Assembly (NCBI RefSeq): GCF_056712565.1 | Contig: NZ_CM160072.1 | Length of the DNA: 64,000 nucleotides | Direction: 5' to 3' (one strand) | Shown: positions 1,402 through 52,469 of the stretch, one piece after another | Numbering within the stretch: position 1 is the stretch's first letter | Layout of the letters: every line of letters starts with the position of its first letter | The notes under the pieces: generated by a model | Seen by the model: the letters and a program-made list of their open reading frames with translations, nothing else | What the model was told of the DNA's origin: nothing | Databases searched by the model: none | Translations under genes and position numbers: made by a program

Positions 1402-2943
<1,542 letters not shown>

Positions 2944-3028
2944 CCTTAAAGAAGCGTACTTTGCAGTGCTCACACAGATTGTCTGATAGAAAGTGAAAAG
3001 CAAGGCGTCTTGCGAAGCAGACTGATAC

Positions 3029-3104
3029 GTCCCCTTCGTCTAGAGGCCCAGGACACCGCCCTTTCACGGCGGTAACAGGGGTTCGAATCCCCTAGGGGAC
3101 GCCA
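3029..3104 (+). tRNA. gltU: tRNA-Glu (UUC) in the 16S-23S spacer
   Basis: gtccccttcgtctagaggcccaggacaccgccctttcacggcggtaacaggggttcgaatcccctaggggacgcca; cloverleaf with CCA end. Confidence 0.92.
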
Positions 3105-3297
3105 CTTGCTGGTTTGTGAGTGAAAGTCACCTGCCTTAATATCTCAAAACTCATCTTCGGGTGATGTTTGAGATATTTGCTCTTTAAAAATCTGGATCAA
3201 GCTGAAAATTGAAACACTGAACAACGAAAGTTGTTCGTGAGTCTCTCAAATTTTCGCAACACGATGATGGATCGCAAGAAACATCTTCGGGTTGTGA

Positions 3298-6201
<2,904 letters not shown>

Positions 6202-6294
6202 ACAACGCCGAAGATGTTTTGGCGGATGAGAGAAGATTTTCAGCCTGATACAGATTAGATTAACCGGCGACAAGCGGGTTAATGAAACAGAATT

Positions 6295-6414
6295 TGCCTG
6301 GCGGCCTTAGCGCGGTGGTCCCACCTGACCCCATGCCGAACTCAGAAGTGAAACGCCGTAGCGCCGATGGTAGTGTGGGGTCTCCCCATGCGAGAGTAGG
6401 GAACTGCCAGGCAT
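6295..6414 (+). rRNA. rrfC: 5S ribosomal RNA
   Basis: tgcctggcggccttagcgcggtggtcccacctgaccccatgccgaactcagaagtgaaacgccgtagcgccgatggtagtgtggggtctccccatgcgagagtagggaactgccaggcat; 120 nt. Confidence 0.93.
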
Positions 6415-6465
6415 CAAATTTAGCAGTAAGCCGGTTATAAACCGGTGGTTGTAAAAGAATTCGGT

Positions 6466-6542
6466 GGAGCGGTAGTTCAGTCGGTTAGAATACCTGCCTG
6501 TCACGCAGGGGGTCGCGGGTTCGAGTCCCGTCCGTTCCGCCA
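6466..6542 (+). tRNA. aspT: tRNA-Asp (GUC)
   Basis: ggagcggtagttcagtcggttagaatacctgcctgtcacgcagggggtcgcgggttcgagtcccgtccgttccgcca. Confidence 0.92.
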
Positions 6543-6550
6543 CCCTAATT

Positions 6551-6626
6551 AGGGGCGTAGTTCAATTGGTAGAGCACCGGTCTCCAAAACCGGGTGTTGG
6601 GAGTTCGAGTCTCTCCGCCCCTGCCA
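6551..6626 (+). tRNA. trpT: tRNA-Trp (CCA)
   Basis: aggggcgtagttcaattggtagagcaccggtctccaaaaccgggtgttgggagttcgagtctctccgcccctgcca. Confidence 0.92.
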
Positions 6627-19396: not shown

Positions 19397-21418
19397 ATGC
19401 GTCTAAACCCCGGCCAACAACAAGCTGTCGAATTCGTTACCGGCCCCTGCCTGGTGCTGGCGGGTGCGGGTTCCGGTAAGACGCGAGTGATCACCAATAA
19501 AATCGCTCACCTGATTCGCGGTTGCGGTTATCAGGCGCGGCATATTGCGGCAGTCACCTTTACCAACAAAGCGGCGCGCGAGATGAAAGAGCGTGTGGCG
19601 CAGACGCTGGGGCGCAAAGAGGCGCGAGGGTTGATGATCTCCACCTTCCACACGCTTGGGCTGGATATTATCAAGCGCGAATATGCGGCGTTGGGGATGA
19701 AGTCTAACTTTTCGCTGTTTGACGATACCGATCAGCTTGCTTTGCTTAAAGAGTTGACCGAGGGGCTGATTGAAGATGACAAAGTTCTCCTGCAACAGCT
19801 AATTTCGACCATCTCCAACTGGAAGAACGATCTCAAAACACCGGCGCAGGCGGCGGCAGAGGCAAAGGGCGAGCGGGACCGTATTTTTGCCCATTGTTAT
19901 GGGCTGTATGATGCACACCTGAAAGCCTGTAACGTTCTCGACTTCGATGATCTGATTTTATTGCCAACGTTGCTGCTGCAACGCAATGAAGAAGTCCGCG
20001 AGCGCTGGCAGAACAAAATTCGCTACCTGCTGGTGGATGAGTATCAGGACACCAACACCAGCCAGTATGAACTGGTGAAACTGCTGGTGGGCAGCCGCGC
20101 GCGCTTTACCGTGGTGGGTGACGATGACCAGTCGATCTACTCCTGGCGCGGCGCACGTCCGCAGAATCTGGTGCTGCTGAGCCAGGATTTTCCGGCGCTG
20201 AAGGTGATTAAGCTTGAGCAGAACTACCGCTCTTCCGGACGTATTTTGAAAGCGGCGAACATCCTGATCGCCAATAACCCGCACGTCTTTGAAAAGCGTC
20301 TGTTCTCCGAACTGGGTTACGGCACAGAGCTAAAAGTTTTAAGCGCGAATAACGAGGAACATGAAGCCGAGCGCGTCACCGGCGAGCTGATCGCCCATCA
20401 CTTCGTCAATAAAACGCAGTACAAAGATTACGCCATTCTTTATCGCGGCAACCATCAGTCGCGGGTATTTGAAAAATTCCTGATGCAAAACCGCATCCCG
20501 TACAAAATATCTGGCGGTACGTCGTTTTTCTCTCGTCCTGAAATCAAGGACTTGCTGGCTTATCTGCGCGTGCTGACTAACCCGGACGATGACAGCGCAT
20601 TTCTGCGTATCGTTAACACGCCGAAGCGAGAGATTGGCCCGGCGACGCTGAAAAAGCTAGGTGAATGGGCGATGACGCGCAATAAAAGCATGTTTACCGC
20701 CAGCTTTGATATGGGCCTGAGTCAGACCCTGAGCGGACGTGGTTATGAAGCATTGACCCGCTTCACTCACTGGTTGGCGGAAATCCAGCGTCTGGCGGAG
20801 CGGGAGCCGATTGCCGCGGTGCGTGATCTGATCCACGGCATGGATTATGAATCCTGGCTGTACGAAACATCGCCCAGCCCGAAAGCCGCCGAAATGCGCA
20901 TGAAGAACGTCAACCAACTGTTTAGCTGGATGACGGAGATGCTCGAAGGCAGCGAACTGGATGAGCCGATGACGCTCACCCAGGTGGTGACGCGCTTTAC
21001 TTTGCGCGACATGATGGAGCGCGGCGAGAGCGAGGAAGAGCTGGATCAGGTGCAACTGATGACTCTGCACGCGTCGAAAGGGCTGGAGTTTCCCTATGTC
21101 TACATGGTTGGTATGGAAGAAGGGTTTTTGCCCCACCAGAGCAGCATCGATGAAGACAATATTGATGAGGAGCGGCGGCTGGCCTATGTCGGCATTACCC
21201 GCGCCCAGAAGGAATTGACCTTTACGCTGTGTAAAGAACGCCGTCAGTACGGCGAACTGGTGCGCCCGGAGCCGAGCCGCTTCCTGCTGGAGCTGCCGCA
21301 GGATGATTTGATTTGGGAACAGGAGCGCAAAGTGGTCAGCGCCGAAGAACGGATGCAGAAAGGGCAAAGCCATCTGGCGAATCTGAAAGCGATGATGGCG
21401 GCAAAACGAGGGAAATAA
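19397..21418 (+). CDS. rep: ATP-dependent DNA helicase Rep (SF1 UvrD/Rep family)
   Basis: Track ORF 19382..21418; known start [31 protein letters not shown] (673 aa); Walker A GSGKTR. Confidence 0.94.
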
Positions 21419-21464
21419 TCAAGGCCGGAAAAGATGTGTCAGCATCGCATCCGGCACTTACTCA

Positions 21465-22958
21465 TTAATGCACTTCCAGCGGCCAGTGGACATAGCTCTG
21501 CCACTGGCTTTCCTGATCAATAATCTCTTTACCCAGCGGATGTTGGGTTAGCCAACCTTGCGGAAGCGTCAAGGTCAACAGTTCATGGTTAGCCTGTAAT
21601 GTCATCTCTGGCACGAGATCGTCACGGCGACGGCTGGCAAAAATGATAGCCAGGCGGAGTAAACGGCAGAGTTGTTCTGCGACGCGCGGTGGTACGGCAT
21701 TTTGCTGATGCAGCGATGAGAGATCGACCGGATTAGTCTGGTTGAGCAGTAGCGTCGCCAGCAGTTTTTTCTGTGCGGGGGTAAAACCGGGAAGATCTAG
21801 GTTACGCACCAGATAAGCAGCGTGTTGCGGCGCTTGTTTGAAGTCAACGCTCAGGCCGATTTCATGAAGCTGACAGGCGCTGATGAGCAAATCGCGGCTT
21901 ATTGCTTCAAGATGCCATTCATTTTCCACCTGATCGAAGAAGTTAGCCGCAACCTTGGCTACGCGCTGTGCCTGATCAATATCGATCATAAAGCGGCGCT
22001 GAATATTACGCAGCGTACGGCTGCGAATATCCTGCTCGACGGTAAGATGCAACATACCGTAGACCAGGCCTTCACGCAGCGCACCGCCCGCCAGGGTCAT
22101 ACACTGAATATTCAGTTCGGTAAAAATGGCTATCAGGATCGCCAGACCACTCGGGAACACTAACGCACGTTCCAGCGTCAGCCCGTCAATCTCTAGCTCT
22201 TCCAGCCGACCGCAATGAATGGCGCGTTGTTTCAGTTGCTGCAACTTTTCCAGGGTAATGCGTTCATCCATCCCCTGTGCCATCATGATTTCCTGTAACG
22301 CCTGCACGGTGCCGGAAGCGCCAACGCACACTTTCCAGCCGTGATACCGTAATTCATCGGCAACCGGACGTAACACTTCGCGTGCCGCTTTTTCTGCAGC
22401 ATCAAAATTTTCCTGCCCCAGATTACGATCGGCAAAATAGCGTTCCAGCCAGGTAACGCAGCCCATCGACAGGCTGAACAAAGAGGTGGTTTGTGCACCC
22501 GTGCCGGTTACCAGTTCAGTACTGGCTCCGCCGATATCCACCACCAGGCGCTGATCGGCACCGCCAGTGGTGTGAGCAACGCCCTGATAAATCAGACGCG
22601 CTTCCTCTTCACCGCTGATCACCTGTACCGGACAACCGAGGATTTCCTGCGCTTTGGCAATAAAATCACCCGCATTGACGGCAAGTCGTAATGTCGCCGT
22701 AGCGACAACGCGAATTTGCGAGGGAGGGATATCTTGCAGACGTTCAGCAAACAGGCGCAGACATTGCCAACCGCGCTCCATTGCTTCATTAGACAGGGCA
22801 TTTTCGCTATTCAGGCCGGCAGCCAGACGCACTTTGCGTTTTATTCGCGTCAGCGTCTGGATGCTTCCAGCCACCTCGCGCACAACCAGCATATGAAAAC
22901 TATTCGAACCGAGATCAATGGCTGCATACAGCGACGAGGTGGAACCCATACTCTTCAT
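21465..22958 (-). CDS. gppA: guanosine pentaphosphate phosphohydrolase / exopolyphosphatase family
   Basis: 497-aa track ORF; Ppx/GppA N-terminal motif ([16 protein letters not shown]); true start may be 3 codons in (MGSTSS). Confidence 0.9.
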
Positions 22959-41094: not shown

Positions 41095-41171
<77 letters not shown>

Positions 41172-41228
41172 TTTAGTCCCGGCGCTTGAGCTGCGGTGGT
41201 AGTAATACCGCGTAACAAGATTTGTAGT

Positions 41229-41305
41229 GGTGGCTATAGCTCAGTTGGTAGAGCCCTGGATTGTGATTCCAGTTGTCGTGGGTTCGAATCCCATTAGCCA
41301 CCCCA
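41229..41305 (+). tRNA. hisR: tRNA-His (GUG) with extra 5' G
   Basis: ggtggctatagctcagttggtagagccctggattgtgattccagttgtcgtgggttcgaatcccattagccacccca. Confidence 0.92.
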
Positions 41306-41325
41306 TTATTAGAAGTTGTGACAAT

Positions 41326-41412
41326 GCGAAGGTGGCGGAATTGGTAGACGCGCTAGCTTCAGGTGTTAGTGTCCTTACGGACGTGGGGGTTCAAGTCCCC
41401 CCCCTCGCACCA
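41326..41412 (+). tRNA. leuT: tRNA-Leu (CAG), long variable arm
   Basis: gcgaaggtggcggaattggtagacgcgctagcttcaggtgttagtgtccttacggacgtgggggttcaagtcccccccctcgcacca. Confidence 0.92.
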
Positions 41413-41454
41413 CGACTTTAAAGAATTGAACTAAAAATTCAAAAAGCAGTATTT

Positions 41455-41531
41455 CGGCGAGTAGCGCAGCTTGGTAGCGCAACTGGTTTGGGACCAGTGG
41501 GTCGGAGGTTCGAATCCTCTCTCGCCGACCA
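41455..41531 (+). tRNA. proM: tRNA-Pro (UGG)
   Basis: cggcgagtagcgcagcttggtagcgcaactggtttgggaccagtgggtcggaggttcgaatcctctctcgccgacca. Confidence 0.92.
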
Positions 41532-41677: not shown

Positions 41678-42913
41678 ATGCAGCAACAGGTTCCAACGCG
41701 TGCTTTTCATGTGATGGCGAAACCGAGCGGTTCTGATTGTAATCTGAACTGTGACTACTGTTTTTATCTCGAAAAACAATCCCTTTACCACGAAAAGCCA
41801 GTCACGCATATGGACGATGACACGCTGGAAGCGTATGTCCGTCACTATATCGCTGCCAGCGAAACCCAAAACGAAGTGGCTTTTACCTGGCAGGGCGGCG
41901 AACCAACGTTACTCGGGCTGGATTTTTACCGCCGTGCCGTGGCGCTACAGGCGAAATATGGTGCTGGCAGGAAGATAAGTAATAGCTTCCAGACTAACGG
42001 CGTGCTGCTCGATGACGAATGGTGTGCATTTCTGGCAGAAAATCATTTTCTTGTAGGGTTATCGCTGGATGGTCCGGCTGAGATCCACAATCAATATCGC
42101 GTGACCAAAGGTGGCAGACCAACGCATAAGCTGGTGATGCGTGCTCTGACGCTCCTGCAAAAACATCATGTCGACTATAACGTGCTGGTCTGCGTCAATC
42201 GCACCAGTGCGTTACAACCTTTGCAAGTCTATGATTTTCTGTGTGATGCAGGTGTTGAGTTCATCCAGTTTATTCCGGTGGTCGAGCGCCTGGCTGATGA
42301 AACGGCTGCTCATGCTGGACTTAAGCTACATGCTCCCGGCGATATTCAGGGCGAACTGACGGAATGGTCGGTGTGCCCGCAAGAGTTCGGTGAGTTTCTG
42401 GTGGCGATTTTCGACCACTGGATTAAGCGCGACGTCGGCAAGGTTTTCGTAATGAATATCGAATGGGCGTTCGCCAATTTTGTCGGCGCACCGGGCGCGG
42501 TTTGCCATCATCAGCCAACCTGTGGGCGCTCGGTGATTGTTGAACACAACGGCGATGTTTACGCCTGCGATCACTATGTTTATCCGCAGTATCGACTAGG
42601 GAATATGCTTCAGCAGACGATTGCAGAAATGATTGATTCCCCGCAACAGCAGGCATTTGGTGAAGATAAATTCAAGCAGTTACCGGCACAGTGTCGCAGT
42701 TGCAACGTGTTAAAAGCGTGCTGGGGAGGCTGCCCGAAACACCGCTTTATGCTCGATGCCAGCGGCAAACCCGGGCTGAATTATTTGTGTGCCGGGTATC
42801 AGCGTTATTTCCGCCATCTACCGCCATATCTTAAAGCAATGGCTGATTTGCTGGCGCACGGTCGTCCGGCCAGCGACATTATGCAGGCGCATTTGATGGT
42901 GGTGAATAAGTAG
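41678..42913 (+). CDS. aslB: anaerobic sulfatase-maturating enzyme homologue (radical SAM/SPASM)
   Basis: Track ORF 41648..42913; CxxxCxxC (CNLNCDYCFY) radical-SAM motif; probable start at MQQQVPTRAF. Confidence 0.88.
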   Translation: MQQQVPTRAFHVMAKPSGSDCNLNCDYCFYLEKQSLYHEKPVTHMDDDTLEAYVRHYIAASETQNEVAFTWQGGEPTLLGLDFYRRAVALQAKYGAGRKISNSFQTNGVLLDDEWCAFLAENHFLVGLSLDGPAEIHNQYRVTKGGRPTHKLVMRALTLLQKHHVDYNVLVCVNRTSALQPLQVYDFLCDAGVEFIQFIPVVERLADETAAHAGLKLHAPGDIQGELTEWSVCPQEFGEFLVAIFDHWIKRDVGKVFVMNIEWAFANFVGAPGAVCHHQPTCGRSVIVEHNGDVYACDHYVYPQYRLGNMLQQTIAEMIDSPQQQAFGEDKFKQLPAQCRSCNVLKACWGGCPKHRFMLDASGKPGLNYLCAGYQRYFRHLPPYLKAMADLLAHGRPASDIMQAHLMVVNK

Positions 42914-42924
42914 AAATCGGCGGC

Positions 42925-43060
42925 CGCCTGCGGTTGATTGCCGGATGCGGCGTGAACGCCTTATCCGGCCTACAATCATTGCAAATTCAATAAATTGCAG
43001 CGTTCTGTAGGCTGGATAAGATGCGTCAGCATCGCATCCGGCAAAGGCAGATCTCAGCGA
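42925..43060. repeat. REP/BIME cluster (repetitive extragenic palindromes)
   Basis: gccggatgcggcgtgaacgccttatccggcctaca and inverted copy gtaggctggataagatgcgtcagcatcgcatccggca between convergent aslB and aslA. Confidence 0.8.
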
Positions 43061-43070
43061 TAGCGCCGGC

Positions 43071-44726
43071 TTAGTCAGATTTAATCTGCGCGCGTGGTGG
43101 ATATTTTTTCAGGATCTCCATATACGCGTGCATTTCGGTCTGTAGCGGTACACCCATCGGAATATGGCGCACGCCGATAGAGTCGCTTTCCTGCGGATCG
43201 GTGTACAGGTTAAACACCGACGATCCCGCCGTTTGCATTACTGTGCCGGTGAATCCACCCTGATATCCGCTCTGGGTATAAGCGTAAGGTTGCTGAATCA
43301 GGACGTGATACTTGAACTCATCCATACGCACAGCAGAAAGTTTACCGTTGAGGAAGTAGTGCTCGGCCTTACGGTTAGACTGACCATTTGTTCCCAGGAA
43401 GAAAGATGTCTGGTCCACACCATCGATAAAGGTGGTTTTCGGTACTAAATTCGCTACTTTCGCCCCAGGATGCCCCGCCAGATCCAGCGCCGTAGGGAAG
43501 AGATCCGCCAGATCGACAATGCCGTCAGATTTACGCGGTTGGATCATGCCTTTCCAGTAAACGAAGGTTGGCACACGAACGCCGCCTTCCCATGTAGAAC
43601 CTTTCGCACCGCGGAACGGCGTGCGACCGTGCGGCGGAACTTCGGCTTCCGGACCGTTATCAGAGGTGAACACAATCAGCGTGTTATCAAGCTGACCGTT
43701 TTTCTCCAGTGCTTTATACAGATTGGCGAAGATATCGTTCATCTCCACCATGCAGTCGCCGTAAGAGGTGCGCGCCGGAGAGCTACCCGCATATTTGGCG
43801 TTCGGGTAGTTATCGAAGTGACAGCCGCGAGTGCCGTAATAGAGGAAGAAAGGCTTATCACTCTTCGCCATCTTGTCGAGGAACTTAACGCCATATTCCA
43901 TCCAGCGTTGATCCAGGTCTTCCATATATTTCGGCGTAATGTCGGCAATGGCTTCCTGTTCACCGCCGCGCACGGCATGAACGTCATCTTTGCTGAACGG
44001 CAGTTTTTGGATGTATTCAGAACGAGCCGGGCTCAGGGCGACTTCCGGGTTGACATGAACATCACGCCATTCGGTATACATATCGGACACCGAGTTAAAG
44101 CCGCGGAAATCATCAAAGCCAACGTTCTGCGGCTGCGACTCTTTGTTTTCCCCCATATGCCATTTCCCGATAGCCTGGGTGACGTAGCCCTGATCGTGCA
44201 GCAACTGCGGCAGCGTGGTTAACCCTTGCAGACCGCCCGGTTGCCCGTACATTGGCGGCATCAGAATGCCGTGGTGGATGGAGTATTGTCCGGTGAGAAT
44301 CGTGGCGCGGGTTGGGGAAGAACTCGGTTGAGAATACGCCGAAGTTAAAATCAGCCCCTGGCTGGCAACGGCGTCGATATCTGGTGTAGGGTTACCCACC
44401 GCCACGCCGCCGCCGTTAAAGCCAACGTCCATCCAGCCCACATCATCCAGCAAGAAAACAACCACGTTCGGTTTCTTACCGGTTTTTTTCTCAAGTTCCG
44501 CCAGTTTCTGCTGGGTTTCTTTGTCTTGTGCAGGATGCTGCATCACCGGCATCATGTTGTCGGCAATAGTGGTCGCCGGTTTAACCAGATACTGGTTTGG
44601 GTGATCGTATCCGGCAAAGCCTTTGCGTGCGGTGGCGGTTGACGGGGTATCTGCTGCGCTGGCTATGAGAGGAAGAGCTGCGGCGACAGCAACAACAAGA
44701 AGTTTGGGTGAAAACGAAAATTCCAT
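43071..44726 (-). CDS. aslA: arylsulfatase-family periplasmic protein
   Basis: 551-aa ORF with N-terminal signal peptide ([24 protein letters not shown]); sulfatase fold. Confidence 0.92.
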
Positions 44727-45150: not shown

Positions 45151-45357
45151 GTAGATGCTCATTCCATCTCTTATGTTCGCCTTAGTGCCTCATAAACTCC
45201 GGAATGACGCAGAGCCGTTTACGGTGCTTATCGTCCACTGACAGATGTCGCTTATGCCTCATCAGACACCATGGACACAACGTTGAGTGAAGCACCCACT
45301 TGTTGTCATACAGACCTGTTTTAACGCCTGCTCCGTAATAAGAGCAGGCGTTTTTTT
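45151..45357 (+). ncRNA. glmZ: GlmZ small regulatory RNA
   Basis: gtagatgctcattccatctcttatgttcgccttagtgcctcataaactccggaatgacgc...ctgctccgtaataagagcaggcgttttttt matches the ~207-nt GlmZ sequence incl. intrinsic terminator; track ORF 45262..45612(-) over it is spurious. Confidence 0.85.
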
Positions 45358-52430: not shown

Positions 52431-52469
52431 TGAAAGTGCCGGAAAGCGAGGCTTATCCGGCATGCAATC

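What the first reader, a model, noticed from the sequence alone, without database searches (positions are those of the whole stretch)
42925..43060. BIME/REP cluster between convergent aslB and aslA; single REP after rep
Two inverted REP units (gccggatgcgg...ccttatccggcctaca and gtaggctggataagatgcgtcagcatcgcatccggca) sit between the convergent genes. A related partial REP (gatgtgtcagcatcgcatccggcac) occupies the rep-gppA gap at ~21425-21460. These are targets for DNA gyrase and IHF and can seed rearrangements.
Basis: partly seen in the sequence, partly recalled or inferred. Interest (0 to 1): 0.15.

Follow-up and report, generated by a model that had tools for sequence, protein, structure and literature searches.

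The report
Ordinary E. coli REP/BIME repeat
The stretch between the aslB and aslA genes is a copy of a well-known E. coli intergenic palindromic repeat (a two-hairpin "BIME" with an IHF-type linker), ordinary in kind, although comparing thousands of strains shows that this copy has been flipped, collapsed, or used as the edge of a gene deletion.

Summary
The window is E. coli chromosome, 100% identical to ATCC 11775. Between the convergent genes aslB and aslA lie three parts:
- a y-type REP (42939-42973), matching the y consensus at 35 of 35 positions;
- a 33-nt L linker (42974-43006) with a 12/13 IHF-consensus match;
- a second, inverted REP (43007-43043).

This is a BIME of the L-linker (BIME-1, RIB/RIP) class. 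It is atypical because its second REP is a 37-nt z2-length unit with a y-type foot, not the short z1. The rep-gppA hairpin (21419-21457) is the nearest relative of that unit and lacks the GTAG box.

The kind of element is already known.

The new information is comparative. Among 5,426 complete E. coli genomes, about 41% keep the two-REP element. About 38 genomes, plus E. whittamii and strain E69, carry it inverted in place. About 26% have it collapsed to one hairpin by 73- or 76-bp deletions between 6-7-nt direct repeats. In 1,729 genomes (32%) one shared deletion runs from the GTAG of the second REP into aslA. This supports the claim that such repeats can seed rearrangements. Interest is low.

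The parts
42939..42973 (-). REP1, a y-type palindromic unit. On the + strand it reads as the iREP form, ending in CTAC at 42970-42973. The GTAG-first REP form is on the - strand.
   Evidence: It matches the y consensus derived from 79 units in related loci at 35 of 35 positions. Fold z = -4.8 and -4.7. It aligns to the Y half of Rfam naRNA4.
42974..43006 (+). L-type linker, with its core TGCAAATTCAATAAATTGCA at 42980-42999.
   Evidence: The core recurs in 85 enteric-type copies, nearly all flanked by y and z REPs. It matches the Rfam ES036/CssrF consensus at 29.9 bits, below the gathering score of 37.6.
42985..42997 (+). IHF-consensus-like site, ATTCAATAAATTG.
   Evidence: It matches WATCAANNNNTTR at 12 of 13 positions and is the only match with at most one mismatch in the spacer. 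IHF binding to the L linker is taken from the literature (PMC3333891). The consensus match alone is weak evidence.
43007..43043 (+). REP2, in REP orientation with GTAG at 43007-43010. It is a 37-nt long-form unit with a y-type CCGG foot.
   Evidence: Identity is 31/37 to z2, 31/38 to y and 27/37 to z1. It aligns to the Z2 half of naRNA4 with the inner stem changed on both sides, GACGC/GCGTC to GATGC/GCATC. Fold z = -4.5 and -4.0. Among the 85 L-bearing copies, this form occurs only at the aslB-aslA locus.
42938..42949 (.). Left arm of the perfect 12-nt outer inverted repeat, TTGCCGGATGCG. It is the left boundary of the segment that is inverted in other strains.
43033..43044 (.). Right arm of the perfect 12-nt outer inverted repeat, CGCATCCGGCAA.
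42944..42949 (+). GATGCG direct repeat, copy 1. It is an endpoint of the 76-bp collapse seen in ST131-type strains.
43020..43025 (+). GATGCG direct repeat, copy 2.
44587..44621 (+). Stretch inside aslA that resembles REP2 in register. It lies at the right endpoint (44587/44588) of the aslA deletion carried by 1,729 genomes.
   Evidence: It is 20/35 identical in register with 43014-43048, including a 15/16 block, ATCG.ATCCGGCAAAG. None of 200 shuffles reaches the best 15/17 match.
21419..21457 (+). Single degenerate REP between rep and gppA. The hairpin is 21423-21456, and TCAA stands in place of GTAG.
   Evidence: The flanking DNA, covering at least 80% of a 401-nt query, is present in 5,417 of 5,426 genomes.

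Best explanation
The element is a single-copy BIME of the L-linker class (BIME-1, also called RIB or RIP), sitting in the 157-nt spacer between the stop codons of convergent aslB and aslA. It consists of a canonical y REP, the conserved L linker with its IHF-type site, and an inverted second REP that is an uncommon long variant.

Likely mode of action, inferred from the family:
- As RNA, each unit forms a stable hairpin at the 3' end of the aslB or aslA transcript. Such hairpins protect the message from 3' exonucleases and damp read-through into the opposing gene.
- As DNA, the L linker is a bending site for IHF.
- The paired REPs can extrude as hairpins or a cruciform. This makes the locus prone to slippage, inversion and deletion.

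The rep-gppA unit is a lone, decayed member of the same REP subtype. It probably acts only as a shared 3' hairpin for the two convergent genes.

Shown here: the anatomy, family resemblance, fold stability, genome-wide repetition and the series of structural alleles.

Inferred: IHF binding, mRNA 3'-end effects and the mechanism of the rearrangements.
For: - Sequence and coordinates.
- Flanking genes.
- The K-12 orthologous spacer is 98% identical.
- REP1 matches y at 35/35.
- The L core is shared with 84 other enteric-type copies that have y on one side and a GTAG REP on the other.
- The definition of BIME-1 and of the IHF site in L comes from PMC3333891.
- The IHF consensus match is 12/13.
- Fold z-scores range from -4 to -7.3.
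- Rfam's REP-derived models naRNA4 and ES036 align to the three parts, below their gathering scores.
- Instability at the locus, among 5,426 genomes:
  - The 107-bp segment between the 12-nt arms in Z0117, E69 and E. whittamii is 96.3%, 96.3% and 93.6% identical to the reverse complement of the window's segment, and about 76% identical in direct orientation.
  - The collapsed alleles are 76-bp and 73-bp deletions bounded by GATGCG or GCCGGAT direct repeats.
  - One deletion junction running from the GTAG box into aslA is present in 1,729 genomes.
  - Allele counts.
Against: - REP2 is not the z1 unit that defines BIME-1. It is 27/37 to z1 against 31/37 to z2.
- The conserved outer flanks seen in most L-bearing copies are absent here.
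- The IHF match alone would occur by chance about once in ten such spacers, by my estimate.
- No terminator-like site was found.
- No expression, IHF or gyrase data for this locus could be obtained. The Topo-Seq supplement held as text does not mention aslA or aslB.
- The aslA-deletion junction CTGT|GGATAC does not fit a simple one-step microhomology event. It also does not fit the published TnpA-REP cut, CC|TAC.
Confidence: 0.9

Rival explanations
1. The two hairpins form a bidirectional intrinsic (Rho-independent) terminator for the convergent genes and owe nothing to the REP family.
For: The position between two stop codons and the stable GC-rich hairpins on both strands.
Against: No hairpin is followed by a T run, and the terminator scan found 0 sites against 1.0 expected. 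The sequence is repeated about 40 or more times per genome and matches the y consensus at 35/35. A locus-specific terminator would show neither property. REPs can still attenuate transcription, so this is a possible function rather than a rival identity.
Confidence: 0.05
2. It is a gyrase-binding BIME-2-type element that acts as a strong gyrase site.
For: It contains a y REP, the unit most often cut by gyrase within BIME-2 (PMC6379681). REP2 has z2 length.
Against: The linker is the 33-nt L motif, not the short S linker. The element is single, not tandem. BIME-1 has lower gyrase affinity than BIME-2 (PMC1475751). Gyrase cleavage sites are slightly under-represented at IHF sites.
Confidence: 0.1
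3. The linker and hairpins encode a small regulatory RNA of the ES036/CssrF or naRNA type.
For: Rfam ES036 aligns to 42974-43013 (29.9 bits, E = 2.6e-4 in the 241-nt search) and naRNA4 aligns to both REPs. Most K-12 REP elements are transcribed (PMC4550694).
Against: All hits are below the gathering scores, 37.6 and 59.5. No promoter-like site exceeds the shuffle expectation. These Rfam models are themselves built on REP/BIME sequence, so the hits restate the repeat identity. About 58% of E. coli genomes lack the intact element, which argues against a required RNA gene.
Confidence: 0.05

Closest known systems
BIME-1, also called RIB or RIP elements (Gilson/Bachellier nomenclature, as summarised in PMC3333891)
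   Same: Single copy, a y REP, the conserved long L linker with an IHF-type site, a second REP in inverse orientation, and a position at the 3' ends of transcription units.
   Different: The partner REP is not the 29-30-nt z1 found in about 70 of 85 L-bearing copies. It is a 37-nt unit with a CCGG foot. The conserved outer flanks of typical copies are missing.
[quoted passage not shown]
   Same: It combines L with a z2-length REP.
   Different: Atypical BIMEs are described as occurring in multiple tandem copies. This one is single.
BIME-2, for example REP325, the source of naRNA4 (PMC4550694; Rfam RF02564)
   Same: A y unit plus a long z-type unit. Both halves align to the naRNA4 model.
   Different: The linker is 33-nt L rather than a short linker, there is no tandem array, and the score of 41 bits is below the gathering score of 59.5.
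Short-direct-repeat deletions and inversions at palindromes
   Same: The collapsed alleles are bounded by 6-7-nt direct repeats that lie on the two arms of the large palindrome. The inversion is bounded by the 12-nt inverted arms.
   Different: The mechanism was not tested here. The aslA deletion junction is not a clean microhomology junction.

Membership tests
REP (palindromic unit) | An imperfect palindrome of 30-40 nt able to form a hairpin with an internal mismatch | tested here: met
   REP1 is 35 nt, REP2 is 37 nt, and the rep-gppA unit is about 35 nt. The folds show an outer stem, an internal loop and an inner stem, with z from -3.4 to -4.8.
REP (palindromic unit) | A conserved GTAG tetranucleotide 5' of the hairpin foot | tested here: met
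   REP2 has GTAG at 43007-43010. REP1 has CTAC at 42970-42973, which is GTAG on the - strand. The feature is not met for the rep-gppA unit, which has TCAA.
REP (palindromic unit) | Many dispersed, mostly extragenic copies in the genome | tested here: met
REP2 alone gives a median of 14 similar places. There are 189 units in 716 kb of related loci.
REP (palindromic unit) | Match to a y, z1 or z2 consensus | tested here: met
   REP1 matches y at 35/35. REP2 is intermediate, at 31/37 to z2 and 31/38 to y. The rep-gppA unit is 28/38 to both y and z2.
BIME | [quoted passage not shown] | tested here: met
   definition from PMC3333891.
BIME-1 (RIB/RIP) | A long, conserved L linker | tested here: met
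   The linker is 33 nt. Its 20-nt core is identical to that of the other L copies, which was also the search criterion. Beyond the core, the linker agrees with ES036 across 40 nt.
BIME-1 (RIB/RIP) | Composed of y and z1 | tested here: not met
   The y unit is present, but the partner is a 37-nt unit with a CCGG foot, 27/37 to z1.
BIME-1 (RIB/RIP) | Occurs as a single copy, not a tandem array | tested here: met
   The spacer holds one element.
BIME-1 (RIB/RIP) | IHF binds the linker | not testable with these tools
   Only a 12/13 consensus match is available.
BIME-2 | y and z2 with a short S linker, in tandem copies, cleaved by gyrase | tested here: not met
   The linker is L and the element is single. 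Gyrase cleavage could not be tested.
Substrate of TnpA-REP (RAYT) | A REP with a 5' GTAG and a stem mismatch, plus a CT cleavage site in the partner iREP | tested here: inconclusive
   GTAG and the stem mismatches are present. GCC|TAC-type sites exist on both strands. The TGCC|TGAT type-I site is absent because both feet are CCGG. The tnpA-REP gene lies outside the window, and activity was not tested.
Rfam naRNA4 (RF02564) and ES036 (RF02751) | Score at or above the curated gathering score | tested here: not met
   41.1 bits against 59.5, and 29.9 bits against 37.6. Nothing at gathering level was found on these elements in the whole window.
Intrinsic terminator | A GC-rich hairpin followed by a T run | tested here: not met
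   0 sites in 42500-43500.

The most novel reading that the evidence does not exclude
This BIME may be a REP-directed breakpoint hotspot. Under this reading, one old in-place inversion, two independent collapses to a single hairpin, and the 1.58-kb deletion that removed most of aslA (a gene surveyed as a virulence factor) in about a third of E. coli all began at its hairpins. The deletion would have been guided by a REP2-like stretch inside aslA. The cause would be cruciform or hairpin processing, or the REP-associated transposase. The locus would then serve as a natural reporter of REP-driven genome instability.
Probability: 0.2. Interest if true: 0.35.

Novelty: already known. Interest (0 to 1): 0.12.

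Why it matters
As a kind of element it adds nothing. REPs and BIMEs have been described since the 1980s, and BIME polymorphism between E. coli strains has been reported (Bachellier et al. 1997, cited in PMC3333891).

The modest value lies in the allele series at this one locus:
- It gives sequence-level examples of how such a palindrome decays: inversion between 12-nt arms, and slippage between 6-7-nt repeats.
- It places one end of the deletion that removed most of aslA at the repeat. That deletion contributes to aslA presence/absence in virulence-gene surveys.
- It is a caution for annotation. The RefSeq K-12 record as held here lists no REP features, even at the known REP325 locus.

Tried and rejected
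- **Intrinsic terminator.** The scan found none.
- **Rfam families.** Only sub-threshold hits to REP-derived models were found.
- **K-12 annotation as a check on REP status.** The held record shows no REP features even at the known REP325 locus, so their absence says nothing.
- **Original consensus papers.** Gilson 1991, Boccard and Prentki 1993 and Bachellier 1997 are not held. I instead derived the y, z1 and z2 consensus sequences from 189 units in fetched loci and from the Rfam naRNA4 model.
- **Locus-specific gyrase data.** The Topo-Seq supplement held as text mentions neither aslA nor aslB.
- **Counting the inverted allele by coverage.** This failed because the palindrome also aligns in the wrong orientation: 2,250 genomes reach 80% coverage. 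I used identity bands instead, so that count (about 38) and the split between the two collapsed alleles are approximate.
- **Matching the aslA-deletion junction to the published TnpA-REP cut (CC|TAC) or to a one-step GATA microhomology.** Neither fits exactly, and the junction is left unexplained.
- **Frequent, switch-like inversion.** Rejected, because orientation is linked to the right-flank haplotype in all seven full alleles examined.
- **The paper on REPs close to stop codons.** I looked for it because it is relevant to the rep-gppA unit. It is not in the library, so that idea rests on my memory only.

Full report
**What is there**

The window is Escherichia coli chromosome. An 801-nt query around the finding is 100% identical to strain ATCC 11775 and other strains. 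The flanking genes are annotated aslB (anaerobic sulfatase maturase) and aslA (arylsulfatase). NCBIfam gives a match above the curated cut-off for aslB and only weaker sulfatase-family matches for aslA. aslB ends at 42913 on the + strand, and aslA ends at 43071 on the - strand. The two genes converge on a 157-nt spacer.

The exact anatomy is:
- REP1: 42939-42973, TGCCGGATGCGGCGTGAACGCCTTATCCGGCCTAC.
- Linker: 42974-43006, AATCATTGCAAATTCAATAAATTGCAGCGTTCT.
- REP2: 43007-43043, GTAGGCTGGATAAGATGCGTCAGCATCGCATCCGGCA.

The outermost 12 nt on each side, 42938-42949 and 43033-44, are perfectly complementary.

**Is it more than chance?**

Yes, on three counts.
- Each unit folds far better than its shuffles, with z from -4.0 to -4.8. 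The whole spacer gives z = -7.3 on the + strand and -5.6 on the - strand, with 0 of 200 shuffles as stable.
- The 14-nt REP foot occurs in the 64-kb window with 0 or 1 mismatch only at these two places.

The K-12 spacer is 98% identical and has the same layout.

**Which kind of REP/BIME?**

The published definition (PMC3333891) is as follows. REPs are 30-40-nt imperfect palindromes with a 5' GTAG. Pairs in inverse orientation with a linker form BIMEs. BIME-1 is y plus z1 with a long, conserved L linker that often carries an IHF site, and it is single copy. BIME-2 is y plus z2 with short linkers in tandem arrays. Atypical BIMEs are chimeras of the two.

The original consensus papers are not held, so I derived consensus sequences from data. 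I scanned one genome per species for the linker core TGCAAATTCAATAWATTGCA. This returned 86 stretches and 92 matches including the window's own. Of these, 85 are enteric-type copies (84 plus the window) from Escherichia and Pseudocitrobacter, and 7 are chance matches without REPs.

The typical copy reads as a y unit, 6-7 nt, the L core, about 8 nt, and then a 29-nt REP, GTAGGCCTGATAAGCGTAGCGCATCAGGC. By its association with L, that short REP is z1. A census of 189 units in 716 kb of these loci gave the y, z1 and z2 forms. The Rfam naRNA4 model, built on the Y-l-Z2 repeats of REP325 (PMC4550694), confirms that z2 is the long form.

Against these references:
- REP1 is y at 35/35.
- REP2 is 31/37 to z2, 31/38 to y and 27/37 to z1.

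REP2 therefore has z2 length and architecture but the y-type CCGG foot. Its inner stem is changed on both sides, from GACGC/GCGTC to GATGC/GCATC, so pairing is kept.

Among the 85 L-bearing copies, this long CCGG-footed partner occurs only four times. All four are the aslB-aslA locus: the window, E. coli E69, E. whittamii and Escherichia sp. E1V33. The conserved outer flanks of typical copies are also absent here.

The element is therefore an L-linker, BIME-1-like element that fails the 'z1' criterion. It is best described as an atypical single-copy variant.

The linker contains ATTCAATAAATTG at 42985-42997, which is 12/13 to the IHF consensus WATCAANNNNTTR. Alone this is weak evidence. The stronger argument is its identity with the L motif, for which IHF binding is reported in the literature.

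**The rep-gppA unit**

The sequence at 21419-21457 is TCAAGGCCGGAAAAGATGTGTCAGCATCGCATCCGGCAC. It forms a hairpin with z = -4.1 and -3.4. It starts 4 nt after the rep stop codon and ends 7 nt before the gppA stop codon.

It lacks GTAG and has GGAAAAG for GGATAAG. Its best match among the units examined is REP2, at about 86%, so the two belong to the same minor subtype. The census found only three other units of this kind elsewhere.

The flanking DNA is present in 5,417 of 5,426 genomes, as one place per genome. 'Related partial REP' is a fair description.

**Function**

No terminator-like site is present, against 1.0 expected from shuffles. No Rfam family reaches its gathering score, and the sub-threshold hits (naRNA4, ES036/CssrF) are to models that are themselves REP/BIME sequence.

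From the family's established properties, the most likely roles are:
- 3' hairpins that protect or attenuate the two convergent transcripts;
- an IHF bending site in L.

Gyrase binding is documented mainly for BIME-2 and for y units within it, with lower affinity for BIME-1 (PMC1475751; PMC6379681). No locus-specific gyrase data were found. None of these functions was tested here.

**What the strain comparison adds**

I counted structural forms of the spacer among 5,426 complete E. coli genomes. The counts for forms B, C and D below are approximate.

| Form | Description | Genomes |
|---|---|---|
| A+B | Two-REP element, either orientation | 2,254 |
| B | Two-REP element, inverted relative to the window | about 38 |
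| C+D | Collapsed forms together (3,662 genomes keep both gene ends, minus 2,254) | 1,408 |
| C | ST131-type collapse | about 850 |
| D | Collapse of the inverted form | about 560 |
| E | Deletion into aslA | 1,729 |

Form B is a true inversion. The 107-bp segment bounded by the 12-nt arms in Z0117, E69 and E. whittamii is 96.3%, 96.3% and 93.6% identical to the reverse complement of the window's segment. In direct orientation it is only about 76% identical. The upstream flank is unchanged.

Orientation is linked to the right-flank haplotype in all seven full alleles examined. Both orientations occur outside E. coli. This points to one old event rather than frequent switching.

Form C has lost 76 bp between the GATGCG repeats at 42944 and 43020. 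This leaves one perfect hairpin.

Form D has lost 73 bp between GCCGGAT repeats of the inverted form. This leaves a y unit without GTAG.

Form E is a junction that is 98.5-100% identical in every genome sampled from those that carry it. It keeps REP1, L and the first two bases of GTAG. It then continues inside aslA at 44587/44588, leaving a 138-nt aslA 5' remnant annotated as a pseudogene. About 1.58 kb is lost.

The right endpoint of form E abuts a 35-nt stretch of aslA that resembles REP2 in register. Identity is 20/35, with a 15/16 block, and no shuffle of 200 reaches the best 15/17 match. The junction itself fits neither a clean microhomology event nor the published TnpA-REP cut site, so its mechanism remains open.

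**Comparison with what is known, and verdict**

REPs and BIMEs are textbook elements. Their polymorphism between E. coli strains has been reported before (cited in PMC3333891). This finding is a correct identification of a known element.

It needs two refinements: the class (L-linker type with an unusual partner REP) and the gyrase claim (weak for this class). The allele series is a tidy illustration of palindrome instability, and it places one end of a common aslA deletion at the repeat. It does not change the category. Novelty is 'already known', and interest is low.

Noticed in passing
window 43007-44588; L003 4300-4560: In 1,729 of 5,426 complete E. coli genomes, aslA is reduced to a 138-nt 5' remnant. 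One shared deletion is responsible, and its left end lies in the GTAG box of REP2. aslA is often scored as a virulence gene, and this deletion contributes to its presence/absence pattern.
   Followed up: partly
window 42938-43044 compared with L007, L039 and L053: The whole BIME is inverted in place in about 38 E. coli genomes, in E. coli E69 and in E. whittamii. The inverted segment is 94-96% identical to the reverse complement of the window's segment. Orientation is linked to the right-flank haplotype, which differs by an 8-nt indel.
   Followed up: yes
window 42914-42937: The left flank is polymorphic. The window, K-12 and E. whittamii read GAAATCGGCGGCCGCC, which contains a 10-nt perfect palindrome with a NotI site. 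Most other strains carry a version 9 nt longer, AAAAAAGCGGCCATTTTGTGGCCGCC, which is a small hairpin. This indel is not linked to the BIME orientation.
   Followed up: no
window 52438-52465: GTGCCGGAAAGCGAGGCTTATCCGGCATGC is a short hairpin (z = -3.0) that looks like a decayed y-type REP. The foot and the CTTATCCGGC motif are kept, while the centre and the CTAC are lost.
   Followed up: partly
L075 388-982; L074; L069: Escherichia sp. MOD1-EC7003 carries tandem arrays of L-bearing y-L-z1 units, with five L cores mostly 115 bp apart. BIME-1 is described as occurring in single copies.
   Followed up: no
L018, L047, L076, L077: Very short contigs (261-3,920 bp) in assemblies labelled Desulfosporosinus, Collinsella, Methylobacterium and Alkalicoccobacillus carry perfect enteric y-L-z1 BIMEs. 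The most likely cause is Escherichia contamination of those assemblies.
   Followed up: no
L001 and L094 (NC_000913.3): The RefSeq K-12 record as held lists no REP repeat features, even across REP325 between yjdM and yjdN. Absence of a REP annotation in this resource therefore carries no information.
   Followed up: yes
window 21416-21467: The rep-gppA hairpin lies 4 nt from the rep stop codon and 7 nt from the gppA stop codon. From memory, REPs within about 15 nt of a stop codon have been reported to stall terminating ribosomes and lower expression. I could not find that paper in the library, and the idea was not tested.
   Followed up: no
window 1402-6623, 41095-41528, 45151-45357: The window also holds an rRNA operon with tRNAs, a cluster of four tRNA genes (Arg-His-Leu-Pro in the ATCC 11775 annotation) just upstream of aslB, and the sRNA GlmZ downstream of aslA.
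   Followed up: no
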